Assembly: GCA_015063535.1 (NCBI GenBank) | Contig: SVTY01000005.1 | Span: 23,808-87,807 of the forward strand | Direction of reading: 5' to 3' | DNA length: 64,000 bases | Source: Oscillospiraceae bacterium | GTDB lineage: Bacteria; Bacillota; Clostridia; Oscillospirales; CAG-272 | In this document: positions 13,600 through 55,551 of the stretch, in pieces | Layout: the number at the start of each line of letters is the position of its first letter | Numbering within the stretch: the first letter of the stretch is position 1 | Translations under genes and position numbers: made by a program | Notes under the pieces: generated by a model | Told to the model about the DNA's origin: nothing | The model's database searches: none | Seen by the model: only the letters and a program-made list of their open reading frames with translations

Positions 13600-15591
<1,992 letters not shown>

Positions 15592-15614
15592 GGAAAATAG
15601 AGAGGGGCTTTTTT

Positions 15615-15640
15615 GGAACCTTTCTTGAAAGAAAGGTTCC
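15615..15640. terminator. Perfect palindrome GGAACCTTTCTT-GA-AAGAAAGGTTCC after groEL
   Basis: 12-bp arms, member of the GGWWCC A/T-palindrome group. Confidence 0.6.
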
Positions 15641-15671
15641 AAGCCTCCCAAGAACTTCTGACAAATTTTAT

Positions 15672-15694
15672 GGCGAGAGTATTTTGCTCTCGCC
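15672..15694 (+). terminator. Hairpin GGCGAGAG-tattttg-CTCTCGCC followed by TTTTAT
   Basis: 8-bp stem plus T-run. Either the groEL terminator or a left-end hairpin of the RAYT unit. Confidence 0.5.
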
Positions 15695-15715
15695 TTTTAT
15701 ATCATAACATAAGTG

Positions 15716-16225
15716 ATGAAAATGGATGAATTGAAAAAGAGAAAAACGCCGAGATTGCAAGGCTTTGATTATAATAGTGTAGGTGTATATTTCATAACGA
15801 TATGTACGAAAGACAGACAATGTATTCTTTCTCGTATTGTAGGGACAGGCGTCCTCGACTGTCCGCAAGTTAAGTTGACAAAATACGGAGAGATTGCGAA
15901 GAAATACATACAACAACTGAATGATTTTTACGATCATATCTCGGTTGAAAGTTACGTTATTATGCCTAATCATATTCATATTTTATTGTTTGTAAAGGAA
16001 AACGGACAGTCGAGGACGCCTGTCCCTACAAGGGCAAATAGTGCGTTCGCCCAATTTGTATCTACCTTGAAACGTTTTTGCAATAAAGAATATGGGGAGA
16101 ATATTTGGCAAACTCGTTGCAACGACCACATTATTCGCAATCGACAAGATTATGAGAAACATTTGCGGTATATCTATGAAAATCCATTGCGTTGGCAGTT
16201 TGATACCTTATATGTAAAAGAATAA
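15716..16225 (+). CDS. REP-associated tyrosine transposase (RAYT; IS200/IS605-like Y1 HUH enzyme)
   Basis: About 169 aa. HUH motif YVIMPNHIHILL and catalytic-Tyr helix LRYIYENPLRW. About 35% GC against a roughly 57% background. Start ambiguous (15713/15716/15722). Confidence 0.8.
   Translation: MKMDELKKRKTPRLQGFDYNSVGVYFITICTKDRQCILSRIVGTGVLDCPQVKLTKYGEIAKKYIQQLNDFYDHISVESYVIMPNHIHILLFVKENGQSRTPVPTRANSAFAQFVSTLKRFCNKEYGENIWQTRCNDHIIRNRQDYEKHLRYIYENPLRWQFDTLYVKE
15837..16031. repeat. Perfect 29-bp inverted repeat inside the RAYT CDS (arms 15837-15865 and 16003-16031)
   Basis: ttGTAGGGACAGGCGTCCTCGACTGTCCG vs CGGACAGTCGAGGACGCCTGTCCCTACaa. Each arm is GTAG plus an imperfect palindrome. Confidence 0.95.
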
Positions 16226-16295
16226 AGAAAACATGTCGATTTTTCCAAACATGATCGAAGAAGATCGTACTGCTTTTGATATTTCTCTTGAACTA

Positions 16296-16324
16296 TTGAC
16301 AAATATCTGAAAATATGTTATAAT
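16296..16324 (+). promoter_or_regulatory. Consensus sigma-A promoter with no ORF directly downstream
   Basis: TTGACA-17 nt-TATAAT, exact consensus hexamers. Confidence 0.65.
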
Positions 16325-16495
16325 GCTCTCGTCACACAATTTCATATATTGATTACCCTTGGGGAAACTATATCTTGGCAAAAGATGTTTCTCTCTTTTT
16401 CAATATGCTCTCTAAGGGTAATGAAATTGTGTGACAACAATGAGAGTTACATTCTTTTCAGTGTGTCTCTCATTGAGGCACACTTTTTATTTTTG
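16325..16495 (+). ncRNA. Candidate structured RNA / riboswitch-like leader (unclassified)
   Basis: 15-bp perfect helix 16331-16345/16421-16435 plus 9-bp 16352-16360/16414-22. Outer CTCTC/GAGAG pairing competes with a 9-bp antiterminator (16438-46/16467-75). That antiterminator overlaps a 10-bp terminator stem (16460-84) followed by TTTTTATTTTT. Confidence 0.4.
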
Positions 16496-16633
16496 GGAAG
16501 GAAGTATTGTATGAAAGCAATCAATAAAACATTTGCGAGCTGTTTTTAGCAACGCTCTCAGCACTAACTATTCAGCAATCAAAAACAAATTAAGGTATAT
16601 ATTATAACACAATCAACAACTTTGGAGGAATCT

Positions 16634-17377
16634 ATGAGAAATCTATTTGAAATTGACTATCTGCAAAAAATGAGTGTTCTTCTTCAGGAGGCATTTCAAT
16701 TCAAAAAATACAAAGCGATGCCCGTTGGATTTGCTATTTTGTTGGGAATTTTAATGATCCCTTGGGTGTTGAGCAGTTTTTTATTTGTTGCGTTATTCAG
16801 TGTAGCTACGTTTTTGTTTTCTGTTGTTCTGTTGCCCGTAAAAGCCTTGCATTCCGTTGTTCATAATGAGAGCCAAAATGCCCTGCACGCTACACAATTC
16901 ATACTTTACTTTATCTCTTGGCCGCTCATTTTTTTGTTATATGTTGTACTTGCTTTGTTAGTGCCGATTCTTTTTGTTTTATATGCGGCACTATCTTTGA
17001 CTACCTATATTTGGTCGTTTTGCGGTTTTCGTTTTCATCTGTTCCCCACAAAGGAAGATATCTCTGTCGAAGTGAATGGTACCTATATAATTTTGCCTCT
17101 AATTTATGGGTGTATCGGATGGATTTTATTCATTTTTGTTCCAATAATCCACGGTCTTATTATTTTTGCAGAATTATACGAGCATTATCGGGAAGCCGAT
17201 TTCCCATATTACTTTTTTAATTATGTTTTACCCCCGTATGTATCGCTTCGAAATACATTCAGCATGCTTTTTTCACTTATTGGTTTTTCGAAATCACCCA
17301 AGCCAAAAGATTACGTCGTATACATGGAAGAAATACCCGCAATTGAAGCTACACAAGATTGTTTTGAAGAAAAATAA
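16634..17377 (+). CDS. Hypothetical multi-pass membrane protein
   Basis: About 247 aa, at least 5 hydrophobic segments, about 36% GC. GGAGG 5 nt before ATG 16634. No recognisable motif. Confidence 0.55.
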   Translation: MRNLFEIDYLQKMSVLLQEAFQFKKYKAMPVGFAILLGILMIPWVLSSFLFVALFSVATFLFSVVLLPVKALHSVVHNESQNALHATQFILYFISWPLIFLLYVVLALLVPILFVLYAALSLTTYIWSFCGFRFHLFPTKEDISVEVNGTYIILPLIYGCIGWILFIFVPIIHGLIIFAELYEHYREADFPYYFFNYVLPPYVSLRNTFSMLFSLIGFSKSPKPKDYVVYMEEIPAIEATQDCFEEK

Positions 17378-17416
17378 AAAAGATTGTATTCTTTTTGCAA
17401 ATATGCTTATTGGAAA

Positions 17417-17450
17417 ACAAACGGCAGAGATAGTTTTCTCTGCCGTTTGT
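17417..17450 (+). terminator. Hairpin ACAAACGGCAGAG..CTCTGCCGTTTGT (13-bp stem)
   Basis: Directly downstream of the membrane-protein gene. Confidence 0.55.
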
Positions 17451-17478
17451 CTATAAATATTTATTCAGTTTTCTTTTG

Positions 17479-17508
17479 GTTCCTTTTCTTTTTTAAAAGA
17501 AAAGGAAC
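17479..17508. repeat. A/T palindrome GTTCCTTTTCTTTT-TT-AAAAGAAAAGGAAC (bidirectional terminator candidate)
   Basis: 14-bp perfect arms between convergent genes. Confidence 0.6.
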
Positions 17509-28972: not shown

Positions 28973-29044
28973 CACCCGCAACGGGAATCGAACCCATAAC
29001 TACCCCTTAGGAGGGGGTTATTATATCCATTTAACTATGCAGGC
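28970..29044 (-). tRNA. tRNA-Arg (anticodon CCU)
   Basis: Hand-folded 75-nt cloverleaf GCCTGCA-TA-GTTA-AATGGATA-TAAT-A-ACCCC-CTCCTAA-GGGGT-AGTT-ATGGG-TTCGATT-CCCGT-TGCGGGT-G-CCA. Encoded CCA. Two G-U pairs in the acceptor stem. Confidence 0.85.
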
Positions 29045-55299: not shown

Positions 55300-55460
55300 T
55301 AATTATGGTAGAGGTGCATGATATCACTGCGTTCCGTCGAGGTCGCCGAACCGTTCGAGGCGAAGGGCAAGGGTGTTGTGCCGAAGGCATACGCAGACGG
55401 TGGGCGTATGACCTGGTCTGACCGATTCAGAGTCGGTAGATTGTCATCATCTTGAATCAA
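55300..55460 (+). promoter_or_regulatory. Lysine riboswitch (L-box) aptamer
   Basis: GGTAGAGGTGC start, GTCGCCGAA, GGGCAAGGGTGTTGTGCCGAAGG, CTGG...GGTAGATTGTCA, in the order of L-box conserved blocks. Upstream of dapA. Confidence 0.75.
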
Positions 55461-55551
55461 AAATTTGATCAAATTTGATGGAGAGCTATCTGTGATTGAA
55501 CCTACAATAAGCATTCTGTCTTTTTATGCTTATATTATAGTACAATTTCAG

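What the first reader, a model, noticed from the sequence alone, without database searches (positions are those of the whole stretch)
15837..16031. REP-like GTAG hairpin pair embedded, as a perfect 29-bp inverted repeat, inside the coding sequence of a RAYT-type HUH transposase
Seen: the ~170-aa ORF at 15716-16225 has the HUH motif (MPNHIHIL) and the Tyr helix (LRYIYENPLRW) of REP-associated tyrosine transposases. Within its own CDS, 15837-15865 (ttGTAGGGACAGGCGTCCTCGACTGTCCG) and 16003-16031 (CGGACAGTCGAGGACGCCTGTCCCTACaa) are exact reverse complements (29/29), 137 nt apart. The HUH codons sit in the loop between them. Each arm is GTAG followed by its own imperfect palindrome (GGACAG..CTGTCC). 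The arms are about 63% GC inside a ~35% GC gene. Both arms are read in frame (..IVGTGVLDCPQ.. and ..NGQSRTPVPTR..). Known: RAYTs recognise REPs, which are GTAG-headed imperfect palindromes that normally flank the gene as inverted pairs. Inference: the cognate REP-like doublet appears internalised in the ORF. The gene, its ssDNA or its mRNA would then be a potential substrate or autoregulatory fold for its own product. Protein-level constraint alone cannot keep 29 nt perfectly complementary, so nucleic-acid-level selection or gene conversion must be acting. I did not see canonical flanking REPs, and no other copy of the 27-mer exists in this window.
Basis: partly seen in the sequence, partly recalled or inferred. 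Interest (0 to 1): 0.78.

Follow-up and report, generated by a model that had tools for sequence, protein, structure and literature searches.

The report
REP hairpin pair inside RAYT gene
A small transposase-like gene (a RAYT) carries inside its own coding sequence two inverted copies of the DNA hairpin repeat (REP) that such enzymes normally recognise next to their gene; this is real and conserved in gut Clostridia, but in-frame REPs inside RAYT genes were already reported in 2018, so it extends a known oddity and is not a new kind of system.

Summary
Positions 15837-15865 and 16003-16031 are a perfect 29-nt inverted repeat inside a 169-aa HUH/Tyr (RAYT, TnpA_REP-like) ORF. Each arm is one complete REP unit: TT-GTAG, a 22-nt imperfect hairpin, then G. 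Of 84 full-length homologues from Clostridia MAGs, 76 carry the same arrangement: a forward REP before the HUH codons and a reverse REP after them, with many different REP sequences. Each hairpin is conserved, with strong compensatory covariation and a retained purine-purine mismatch. Both arms of a gene also stay the same REP type. Where the arms of one gene differ, 26 of 72 differing stem pairs are double changes that keep each arm's own hairpin and break arm-to-arm pairing. So the 29-bp long-range duplex looks like a by-product. The same motif is a dispersed, mostly intergenic repeat in metagenomes: 123 of 138 matches lie outside RAYT genes. None lies elsewhere in this 64-kb window. Both arms encode surface loops. 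My best reading is a compact REPtron whose cognate REP pair is built into the ORF. Quentin et al. 2018 already described in-frame REPs inside subclass 2.4 tnpA_REP genes. The fixed inverted pair bracketing HUH, its concerted evolution and the Clostridial clade appear to be undescribed details.

The parts
15716..16225 (+). RAYT / TnpA_REP-like HUH-Y1 gene (169 aa; alternative starts GTG 15713 and ATG 15722)
   Evidence: ORF. NCBIfam REP_Tyr_transpos NF047646, E=5.6e-19, 68.5 bits, below the cut-off of 80. 4ER8 is the best sequence match and the best fold match. 4765 homologues found.
15837..15865 (+). REP unit 'arm 1': TT-GTAG-GGACAG-G-CG-TCCT-CG-A-CTGTCC-G, GTAG strand = coding strand; encodes V42-P50
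   Evidence: Same position, orientation and frame in homologues. The consensus unit is shared with extragenic copies. It encodes the tip of a beta-hairpin between beta1 and alphaA.
16003..16031 (-). REP unit 'arm 2': the same 29-mer on the template strand; encodes G97-T105
   Evidence: Conserved in homologues. It encodes a low-confidence loop after the HUH strand, the beta3/alphaC loop.
15839..15842 (+). GTAG head (guide tetranucleotide) of arm 1
   Evidence: Invariant in alignment A2. GTAG is required for TnpA_REP binding and cleavage in E. coli (PMC8266576).
16026..16029 (-). GTAG head of arm 2 (CTAC on the + strand)
15971..15979 (+). HUH motif codons (H86-I87-H88 in MPNHIHIL)
   Evidence: Invariant in alignment A1.
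16106..16138 (+). W131-Q132...D137-H138...R141, which align with the E. coli TnpA_REP GTAG-contact residues W94, Q95, E100, H101, R104
   Evidence: phmmer alignment to 4ER8. Residue roles are from PMC6006769. Invariant or nearly invariant in A1.
16169..16186 (+). Catalytic Tyr motif Y152-I-Y-E-N-P157 (class 2 'Y---NP' signature)
   Evidence: Signature defined in PMC6006769.
15672..15704 (+). Terminator-like hairpin plus T-run about 20 nt upstream of the RAYT start; no strong promoter between it and the gene
   Evidence: It suggests expression is low or depends on read-through (inference).
15600..17500 (.). Low-GC (~30-40%) stretch containing the RAYT gene, inside ~55% GC DNA
   Evidence: RAYT homologues are AT-richer than their flanks in 82 of 83 loci, and their genomic context is not conserved.

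Best explanation
This is a compact REPtron: a RAYT (TnpA_REP-type HUH/Tyr ssDNA endonuclease) gene whose cognate REP pair sits inside the ORF instead of flanking it. Each 29-nt arm is one full REP unit: tT-GTAG, a 6-bp G+C stem, a purine-purine mismatch, a CG/CG stem, a TCCY loop, then G. Arm 1 has its GTAG strand on the coding strand and arm 2 on the template strand. They bracket the HUH-encoding segment and are translated as two surface loops that tolerate almost any peptide. Shown here: the hairpins, their heads and their mismatch are kept by selection at the nucleic-acid level. Both arms of a gene stay the same REP type while the type turns over between lineages. The same REP types occur as dispersed, mostly intergenic copies and inverted doublets. 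Inferred: when the locus is single-stranded (lagging-strand template, transcription bubble), each arm folds and is bound, and potentially cleaved and rejoined, by the encoded RAYT, as for E. coli REPs. The arms stay matched to the enzyme's specificity through selection and/or gene conversion with the genomic REP pool. Embedding also makes enzyme and substrates an inseparable ~0.5-kb unit that moves together between genomes. The perfect 29-bp arm-to-arm complementarity in this window is a by-product of two identical inverted REP copies.
For: The arms are conserved. 76 of 84 full-length homologues have GTAGG before HUH and its reverse complement after it, and 69 have a strict GTAG plus >=6-bp hairpin at both sites. 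The frame is the same throughout: V-G from GTAGG, P-T from CCTAC. Local hairpin covariation was tested on a head-anchored alignment of 87 distinct units: 87.4% paired against 67.0% shuffled (0/500), 135 double-change cells against 41.5 (0/500), slid controls 30-53%, all four Watson-Crick pair types at three stem positions, and few G-U pairs. Positions 7/16 are purine-purine in 68/72 arm-1 units, 68/74 arm-2 units and 36/44 extragenic units. In E. coli the stem mismatches and GTAG are required for TnpA_REP activity (PMC8266576). Synonymous change is suppressed: identical codons among same-aa pairs are 77% in the arms against 48% elsewhere. The arms evolve in concert: arm 1 versus rc(arm 2) differ by a mean of 2.55 of 22 nt within a gene against 7.83 between genes (0/2000 permutations). 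A protein-level reverse-complement test gave 42 of 122 diverse 50%-identity cluster representatives scoring >=7/8, against 0 in the shuffled null, with dozens of different peptide pairs. There are 26 cis-compensated differences between arms in 20 genes (examples). The motif is a dispersed family: it has >=120 metagenome stretches, 123 of 138 matches lie outside RAYT genes, and 46 of 61 well-flanked ones lie outside long ORFs. In-gene arms match REPs in the same locus: 12 loci have identical units against 1.5 expected. The protein is RAYT-like and keeps the GTAG-contact residues. The arms map to loops. Distant relatives (Leptolinea) have the canonical flanking-REP layout, whereas Monoglobus has the internal pair. 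Prior description of in-frame REPs in tnpA_REP: PMC6006769.
Against: There is no biochemical evidence that this protein binds or cuts these hairpins. The 64-kb window has no extragenic copy, so in this genome the REP family may be tiny or absent. The NCBIfam score is below the curated cut-off and Pfam Y1_Tnp gives no hit. The basal stem is 6 bp, one short of the >=7 bp used by Quentin et al. to call REPs. 4 of 84 homologues lack both arms yet keep same-length loops, so the hairpins are not needed for the protein itself. Besides the 26 compensated pairs, 46 stem pairs show other differences between arms; I attribute many to the 19-20-nt length classes and to decayed arms, but did not separate them. 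No benefit to gene or host has been shown, and a purely tolerated selfish insertion explains much of the same data.
Confidence: 0.62

Rival explanations
1. Passive passengers. The arms are selfish REP insertions that are merely tolerated because they landed in frame in two permissive loops. They persist through gene conversion or re-seeding from the genomic REP pool and have no role for the RAYT gene or for REP propagation.
For: Quentin et al. take this view for subclass 2.4: the insertions sit in a peripheral loop with 'little impact on protein activity'. The same REP also sits in frame in unrelated long ORFs (L097, L142, L192). Copy number inside the gene varies, with tandem arrays. Arm-less homologues keep the loops.
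Against: Position, orientation and reading frame are fixed at both sites across homologues down to ~36-40% identity, while the REP sequence type changes completely. 90% of genes keep both heads. Repeated independent insertion at the same two codons is implausible, so persistence in place is required, and that is close to the main explanation.
Confidence: 0.2
2. Long-range fold. Arm 1 pairs with arm 2 in the mRNA or in ssDNA to form a ~29-bp stem that encloses the HUH region. This stem is the selected feature, for example as an RNase III target, a translational block, or an autoregulatory platform for the protein.
For: For this window the minimum-free-energy RNA fold is the 29-31-bp stem (-82.4 kcal/mol, z=-7.6). 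Arms within a gene remain very similar, median 1 difference in 22 nt. The gene follows a terminator and lacks a strong promoter, which fits tight repression.
Against: Arms are identical in only 23 of 76 genes. In 20 genes they differ by paired double changes that preserve each local hairpin and create two mismatches in the long duplex (L026, L028, L031, L044, L060, L066, L076). The conserved GTAG head, the internal mismatch and the identical architecture of extragenic single copies are explained by REP function, not by a long stem. Translation would unwind the stem.
Confidence: 0.1
3. Intragenic inverton. The inverted repeat mediates reversible inversion of the 137-nt HUH core, switching the RAYT off; the inverted frame reads ..VGTGVLDCPFSFTNNKI*.
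For: A perfect 29-bp inverted repeat flanks a short segment, and inversion would truncate the protein at 58 aa (minus-strand ORFs). Intragenic invertons exist in gut bacteria (PMC10028968).
Against: All 84 full-length homologues have the core in the forward orientation. The inverted-junction 23-mer is absent from metagenome contigs. The arms have REP anatomy and occur as dispersed single copies, unlike invertase sites. I did not look for an invertase.
Confidence: 0.03
4. Mobile cassette or master REPIN. The arm1-HUH core-arm2 segment is itself excised or copied by the RAYT, giving HUH-less genes and seeding extragenic REP doublets.
For: In L057 a REP doublet 28 nt after the RAYT stop is a 95.7%-identical copy of gene nt 112-205 (arm 1 plus 68 nt of core) joined to an arm-2-like REP. 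In L062 an in-frame RAYT paralogue lacks everything from arm 1 to beyond arm 2. Extragenic REPs are most often heads-out inverted doublets, the same polarity as in the gene.
Against: There is only one example of each. Ordinary duplication/deletion or hairpin-stimulated replication slippage explains both. Other extragenic doublets have spacers unrelated to the gene. The two GTAG hairpins lie on opposite strands, which does not fit IS200/IS605-type single-strand excision.
Confidence: 0.05

Closest known systems
TnpA_Y1 subclass 2.4 REPtrons (= RAYT group 4) with REPs inserted inside tnpA_REP (Quentin, Siguier, Chandler, Fichant 2018, PMC6006769)
   Same: A RAYT with NH[IFV]H and WQ motifs and no C-terminal tail domain. 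GTAG REPs lie in frame within the gene in the beta3/alphaC loop after HuH. The length is variable because of short repeats, and the loop is judged peripheral. The window protein has NHIH and WQ. Relatives have YIxNNP, in-gene arrays, and a 'double-foot' unit in L007.
   Different: The paper places insertions 'generally between HuH and Y' and in addition to flanking REPs. Here there is a fixed inverted pair, one REP before HuH (beta1/alphaA hairpin) and one after it. In this window there are no flanking REPs at all. The host clade is Clostridia (Oscillospiraceae) rather than Cyanobacteria/Bacteroidetes. I did not find covariation, concerted evolution of the two arms, or synonymous suppression in the parts of the paper I read. 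Their figures S6 and S10 are images I could not read.
E. coli REPtron: TnpA_REP (RAYT, PDB 4ER8) with flanking REP/BIME
   Same: Same fold (TM 0.61) with HUH and the Tyr helix. The GTAG-contact residues W, Q, H and R are conserved and E is replaced by D. The REP is GTAG plus an imperfect hairpin whose mismatch matters, and REPs lie in inverted orientation on either side of the catalytic region.
   Different: The E. coli REPs are extragenic and longer with a 2-nt bulge. Here they are 22-nt hairpins with a 1x1 purine-purine mismatch and are translated. Identity to 4ER8 is only 23%.
REPIN-RAYT systems (Bertels & Rainey 2011; PMC3116915, PMC5581495)
   Same: A low-copy RAYT associated with inverted REP doublets. 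Extragenic heads-out doublets with preferred spacings (18-34 nt and 85-90 nt) exist in relatives.
   Different: The in-gene pair is separated by 137 nt of non-palindromic coding sequence, so it is not a REPIN hairpin. The RAYT gene is AT-rich relative to its flanks and sits in variable contexts, which hints at horizontal movement rather than strict vertical inheritance.
Intragenic palindromic repeats: Rickettsia RPEs and REPs inside genes (Di Nocera et al. 2013, PMC3733652)
   Same: Small palindromic repeats inserted in frame in ORFs that still encode functional proteins, in tolerant regions. The same REP lies in frame in other long ORFs here.
   Different: Here the host gene is the enzyme thought to act on the repeat. 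Two copies are fixed at conserved sites and evolve in concert.
IS200/IS605 (TnpA_IS200 with subterminal LE/RE hairpins)
   Same: An HUH-Y1 enzyme, ssDNA hairpins of 20-25 nt with a 5' guide tetranucleotide, and next-best structural matches (ISDra2, IS608).
   Different: The IS hairpins lie on the same strand outside the gene and define a mobile unit. Here they lie on opposite strands inside the ORF. The gene has the class 2 Y---NP signature, not Y---Q.

Membership tests
HUH-Y1 (IS200/IS605-type) endonuclease superfamily | HUH motif on a beta-strand | tested here: met
   MPNHIHIL, H86/H88. Invariant in A1 and on strand E86-93 of the model.
HUH-Y1 (IS200/IS605-type) endonuclease superfamily | Single catalytic Tyr on a C-terminal helix | tested here: met
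   Y152 in helix 143-166. It aligns with the Y motif of 4ER8.
HUH-Y1 (IS200/IS605-type) endonuclease superfamily | Fold similarity to solved Y1 transposases | tested here: met
   Foldseek: 4ER8 E=1.3e-7, TM 0.61, followed by ISDra2, IS608 and IS200 structures. The model is of moderate quality (pLDDT 67.8).
HUH-Y1 (IS200/IS605-type) endonuclease superfamily | Match to Pfam Y1_Tnp (PF01797) | tested here: not met
   No Pfam family at E<=0.01. No precomputed Pfam domain on the homologues.
RAYT / TnpA_REP (class 2 TnpA_Y1) | Y---NP signature around the catalytic Tyr | tested here: met
   YIYENP. Signature defined in PMC6006769.
RAYT / TnpA_REP (class 2 TnpA_Y1) | Curated NCBIfam equivalog NF047646 REP_Tyr_transpos | tested here: not met
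   68.5 bits, E=5.6e-19, below the curated cut-off of 80. Homologous, but not at equivalog level.
RAYT / TnpA_REP (class 2 TnpA_Y1) | Residues that contact GTAG in E. coli TnpA_REP (W94, Q95, E100, H101, R104) | tested here: met
   They align to W131, Q132, D137, H138, R141 and are invariant or nearly so in A1. E to D also occurs in subclasses 2.5 and 2.7.
RAYT / TnpA_REP (class 2 TnpA_Y1) | Physical association with GTAG-headed REPs of one family | tested here: met
   Two REPs inside the gene. Same-type REPs next to or near the gene in relatives, 12 loci identical against 1.5 expected.
RAYT / TnpA_REP (class 2 TnpA_Y1) | Sequence-specific binding and cleavage of ss REP DNA | not testable with these tools
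   Needs purified protein and the cleavage/strand-transfer assay of PMC8266576.
TnpA_Y1 subclass 2.4 (Quentin et al. 2018) | Motifs NH[IFV]H, WQ, YIxNNP; no conserved C-terminal tail domain | tested here: inconclusive
   NHIH and WQ are met, and the protein ends 12 aa after NP. The window has YIYENP (E, not N). Relatives have YIENNP, YIKNNP and YIINNP. Their subclass HMMs are not available.
TnpA_Y1 subclass 2.4 (Quentin et al. 2018) | REPs inserted in frame within tnpA_REP, beta3/alphaC loop, variable length | tested here: met
   Arm 2 lies in the loop after the HUH strand. Arrays of 2-5 units in homologues.
REP (GTAG-type repetitive extragenic palindrome) | 5' GT[AG]G at the foot of a G+C-rich hairpin (basal stem >=7 bp, or stem-bulge-stem) | tested here: inconclusive
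   GTAG is directly at the foot, with a 6-bp basal stem, a 1x1 mismatch, a 2-bp stem and a 4-nt loop. The basal stem is one pair short of the RNAMotif rule quoted.
REP (GTAG-type repetitive extragenic palindrome) | Many dispersed, mainly extragenic copies | tested here: met
Not met within this window: only the two intragenic copies in 64 kb.
REPIN (REP doublet forming a hairpin) | Two inverted REPs with a short spacer, the whole unit self-complementary and replicated as a unit | tested here: not met
   The orientation is inverted, but the 137-nt spacer is coding sequence without self-complementarity. Only one possible copy of the unit was seen (L057).
Intragenic inverton | Both orientations of the segment present in the population | tested here: not met
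   The inverted junction is absent from metagenome contigs, and 84/84 homologues are forward. Read-level data are not available, so this is a weak test.

The most novel reading that the evidence does not exclude
The arm1-HUH core-arm2 segment is more than a pair of tolerated REPs. It would be the system's master copy: a RAYT-processed cassette from which extragenic REP doublets are seeded, and whose loss switches the enzyme off. The transposase would then carry its own substrate and off-switch inside its catalytic-core coding sequence. The L057 gene-derived doublet, the L062 HUH-less paralogue and the shared heads-out polarity of extragenic doublets are compatible with this.
Probability: 0.08. 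Interest if true: 0.75.

Novelty: new variant of a known kind. Interest (0 to 1): 0.42.

Why it matters
REP/RAYT systems are among the most abundant and least understood repeat systems in bacteria, and nearly all experimental work is on Proteobacteria. This gene family has 7,011 clusters at 50% identity with E<=1e-10. It shows a minimal architecture in which enzyme and both substrates fit in ~0.5 kb. It is also a clean natural example of one DNA stretch under three constraints at once: it codes for protein, it must form a hairpin, and it must match the partner copy. That makes it a convenient system to test how RAYT specificity and REP sequence co-evolve, because each gene carries its own pair of presumed substrates. 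It could also show how a REP family is founded in a new genome, and whether REPs inside the gene regulate the enzyme. For annotation, it explains recurrent odd peptide pairs (VGxGVLDxP with GxSRTPxPT, VGADxxxx with xxMxSAPT, and others) and the length variation in these 'hypothetical proteins'.

Tried and rejected
1. Pfam gave no hit, and Rfam found no family at the arms or nearby.
2. My first cis-compensation count was circular, because units had been selected for having >=6-bp stems. I replaced it with extraction anchored only on the GTAGG head. That gives a less clean but unbiased result: 26 compensated pairs against 46 other differing stem pairs. I attribute many of the 46 to the 19-20-nt hairpin classes being read in the 22-nt frame and to decayed arms, but I did not separate these.
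3. Inverton test: the exact inverted-junction 23-mer was not found in metagenome contigs. This is a weak negative.
4. No CT cleavage dinucleotide is conserved at a fixed offset from GTAG.
5. I asked whether extragenic doublets are generally derived from the gene core. Only L057 is; the others have unrelated AT-rich or hairpin-bearing spacers.
6. I tried to reach cyanobacterial subclass 2.4 genes through plasmid tblastn and got only five distant hits, none cyanobacterial. Whether the bracketing pair is general in subclass 2.4 remains untested.
7. Neighbour conservation: neither groEL nor the downstream 251-aa membrane protein travels with the gene.
8. One script timed out and one get_proteins call exceeded its limit. 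Neither affects the results.
9. I rejected an assembly artefact, given the independent assemblies.
Full report
**Observation.**
The window has a perfect 29-nt inverted repeat. One arm is 15837-15865 (TTGTAGGGACAGGCGTCCTCGACTGTCCG) and the other is 16003-16031, with 137 nt between them. Both arms lie in ORF 15713/15716-16225 (+) and are read in frame as IVGTGVLDCPQ and NGQSRTPVPTR. The HUH codons (15971-15979) lie between them.

The 27-mer has no other match in 64 kb at up to 3 mismatches, and none in 100 shuffles. The REP core occurs only at the two arms. The gene lies in a ~35% GC stretch of ~55% GC DNA, directly after groEL and two terminator-like hairpins.

**The gene.**
- Pfam finds nothing.
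- NCBIfam REP_Tyr_transpos matches at E=5.6e-19 but below its curated cut-off, 68.5 against 80 bits.
- The best solved-structure relative is E. coli TnpA_REP bound to a REP hairpin, 4ER8. This holds by sequence (E=4e-7) and by fold (TM 0.61, E=1.3e-7), ahead of the ISDra2, IS608 and IS200 transposases.
- The protein has HUH and the class 2 Y---NP Tyr motif. It also has W131, Q132, D137, H138 and R141 at the positions that contact GTAG in E. coli (roles from PMC6006769).
- A 100%-identical protein comes from Ruminococcaceae/Oscillospiraceae MAGs. 4765 homologues were found.
- A full HMMER scan gives 7,011 clusters at 50% identity with E<=1e-10.

**The arms are conserved in place.**
I fetched 80 homologous loci from Clostridia MAGs at 40-78% aa identity. 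With paralogues and the window these hold 84 full-length genes.
- 76 genes have GTAGG upstream of HUH and its reverse complement downstream.
- 69 have a strict GTAG plus >=6-bp hairpin at both sites.
- The gap between arms is 129-235 nt.
- The reading frame is constant: V-G from GTAGG and P-T from CCTAC.
- The hairpin sequence differs widely between genomes: GGACAG/CTGTCC, GGACCG/CGGTCC, GGGGCG/CGCCCC, GGGTCG/CGACCC, GGACACCCC/GGGGTGTCC, GGGCGGAT/ATCCGCCC and others.

**What is conserved.**
1. *Each local hairpin.* I used 87 distinct units extracted by their head alone and the structure GTAG-((((((.((....)).)))))). 87.4% of cells pair against 67.0% in shuffles (0/500). 135 double-change cells compare with 41.5 in shuffles (0/500). 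Slid controls give 30-53%. Three stem positions show all four Watson-Crick pair types, and G-U pairs are rare.
2. *An internal purine-purine mismatch.* Positions 7/16 are unpaired purines in 68/72 arm-1 units, 68/74 arm-2 units and 36/44 extragenic units. This recalls the E. coli REP stem mismatches that TnpA_REP needs for activity (PMC8266576).
3. *Nucleotide identity beyond the protein's needs.* Among codon pairs encoding the same residue, 77% are identical in the arms against 48% elsewhere.
4. *The two arms of a gene stay the same REP type.* Arm 1 and rc(arm 2) differ by a mean of 2.55 of 22 nt (median 1) within a gene, against 7.83 between genes (0/2000 permutations).
5. *The same signal at the protein level.* Of 122 diverse cluster representatives, 42 have an xVGxxxxxx peptide before HUH whose reverse-complement reading matches an xxxxxxPT peptide after HUH at >=7/8 residues. 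None do in a shuffled null. There are dozens of different pairs, for example VGDGVLDV with TSRTPSPT, VGADSISA with ADMESAPT, and VGEDIILP with GKMISSPT.
6. *The long duplex itself is not what is kept.* Arms are identical in only 23 of 76 genes. In 20 genes they differ by 26 paired double changes that preserve each arm's own stem and put two mismatches into an arm1:arm2 duplex. Another 46 stem pairs differ in other ways; I attribute many to the shorter hairpin classes and to decayed arms, but did not separate them.

**The arms are REPs.**
The consensus unit tT-GTAG-GGnnnG-R-CG-TCCY-CG-R-CnnnCC-G is the same for arm 1, arm 2 and extragenic copies. This explains why the repeat is 29 nt long.

Of 138 matches, 123 are not in a RAYT gene. 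Of 61 with good flanks, 46 lie outside long ORFs.

In the genome loci, REPs of the same type often sit beside the gene or nearby. Twelve loci have an extragenic unit identical to an in-gene arm, against 1.5 expected. Extragenic units are most often heads-out inverted doublets, with spacer modes of 18-34 and 85-90 nt. Some form ~140-nt composite elements with two REP types.

In this window there are no extragenic copies.

**Where the arms sit in the protein.**
In the AlphaFold model (pLDDT 67.8), arm 1 encodes the tip of a beta-hairpin between beta1 and alphaA. Arm 2 encodes a low-confidence loop right after the HUH strand, the beta3/alphaC loop.

The four homologues without arms keep loops of similar length. 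Two of them (L040, L072) have a REP doublet just outside the gene.

Among distant relatives, Leptolinea has the canonical layout with many flanking REPs and none inside. Monoglobus has the internal pair.

**Dynamics.**
- Homologues carry tandem arrays of arm units: two or three arm-1 units with periods of 33-48 nt, and up to five arm-2 units with periods of 27-60 nt. L007 has a 'double-foot' unit.
- L057 has, 28 nt after the stop codon, a doublet that copies gene nt 112-205 at 95.7% identity and joins it to an arm-2-like REP.
- L062 has an in-frame paralogue that lacks everything from arm 1 to beyond arm 2.
- The gene is AT-richer than its flanks in 82 of 83 loci, and its neighbours are not conserved.

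**Mechanism I commit to (confidence about 0.6).**
This is a compact REPtron.

*Shown:* two bona fide REPs of one family are fixed in two loop-coding sites on opposite strands. They are kept as GTAG hairpins by nucleic-acid-level selection and are kept alike.

*Inferred:* they are substrates of the encoded RAYT when single-stranded. Matching to the enzyme's specificity, and/or gene conversion with the REP pool, keeps both arms the same type. Embedding links enzyme and substrates in one transferable unit. In this window the perfect 29-bp complementarity is a by-product, although the mRNA could thermodynamically form that stem (-82.4 kcal/mol).

**Rivals.**
- Tolerated selfish insertions with no role: 0.2.
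- A selected long-range fold: 0.1.
- A gene-internal mobile cassette: 0.05.
- An inverton: 0.03. The inverted junction was not found, and all homologues are forward.

**Known or new.**
Quentin et al. [quoted passage not shown] These are in frame, generally between HuH and Y, in a variable beta3/alphaC loop with short repeats. Di Nocera et al. 2013 describe REPs inside other genes.

The window gene fits subclass 2.4 on the NHIH and WQ motifs, the missing tail domain and the intragenic REPs. Its Y motif fits only partly (YIYENP against YIxNNP), and their HMMs could not be run.

I did not find the following in the text: the fixed inverted pair bracketing HuH with one REP before it; the exclusively internal arrangement seen in this window; the concerted evolution of the arms together with cis-compensation; and the Clostridial clade. 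Their figures S6 and S10 are not readable here.

I therefore rate it a new variant of a known kind, of moderate interest.

**Limits.**
- There is no biochemistry.
- MAG contigs prevent genome-wide counts and replication-strand analysis.
- The structural model is of moderate confidence.
- Unit detection requires 6-bp stems.
- The metagenome matches are dominated by one large assembly.

Noticed in passing
window 16296-16500: A perfect 12/12 sigma-70-like promoter (TTGACA-17-TATAAT, 16296-16324) is followed by nested inverted repeats: 16331-16345/16421-16435 (15/15), 16349-16365/16409-16425 and 16438-16451/16462-16475. A terminator-like hairpin plus T-run follows at 16460-16494. All of this lies upstream of a 251-aa multi-pass membrane ORF (16622-17377). 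It looks like an attenuator or riboswitch-like leader, but no Rfam family matches.
   Followed up: partly
window 15600-17500: A ~1.9-kb low-GC (30-40%) stretch in ~55% GC DNA, immediately after groEL (13948-15591). It holds the RAYT gene and the 251-aa membrane protein gene. The membrane protein has no counterpart in any of the 80 homologue loci.
   Followed up: partly
window 55301-55496 (+) and 28973-29044 (-): A lysine riboswitch (59.9 bits) and a tRNA gene, both above Rfam gathering scores.
   Followed up: no
L057 10569-10698: A REP doublet 28 nt after the RAYT stop codon is a 95.7%-identical copy of gene nt 112-205 (arm 1 plus 68 nt of core), joined to an arm-2-like REP. It amounts to the intragenic segment with the HUH part deleted.
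   Followed up: partly
L062 8051-8371: A third RAYT paralogue within 5 kb is in frame but lacks everything from just after the arm-1 head (GTAGGGGCG) to beyond arm 2, so it has no HUH motif.
   Followed up: partly
L001-L200, extragenic REP pairs: Neighbouring extragenic REPs are mostly heads-out inverted doublets (46, against 21 heads-in and 21 direct). Their spacers cluster at 18-34 nt and 85-90 nt. L107/L118/L193 and L172/L181 are ~140-nt composite elements that combine two REP types with two extra spacer hairpins.
   Followed up: partly
L097 767, L142 1518, L192 1040/1076/1112: The same REP motif lies inside long stop-free frames of unrelated genes (1514 and 529 codons). In L192 there are three tandem copies 36 nt apart in a 220-codon frame. 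These suggest in-frame intragenic REPs beyond the RAYT gene.
   Followed up: no
L204 (Monoglobus pectinilyticus NZ_OY725736.1) 1986-2468: A RAYT with an internal REP pair lies between two ORFs that are both annotated 'site-specific DNA-methyltransferase'. Its annotated CDS starts only at the HUH region. A third copy of the REP follows the second methyltransferase ORF.
   Followed up: no
L007 4875-5232: Arm 1 is a 'double-foot' unit (GTAGG...CCTAC). Arm 2 is followed by a short tandem DNA repeat that encodes a repetitive (T/M/R)-rich peptide, TRTMTMTRTMTRTMTRT.
   Followed up: no
L134 4192-4422: The RAYT N-terminus (aa 4-50) is followed at arm 1 by its own reverse complement (aa 44-13), close to the contig end. 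This is either a fold-back assembly artefact at the REP or a real palindromic rearrangement.
   Followed up: no
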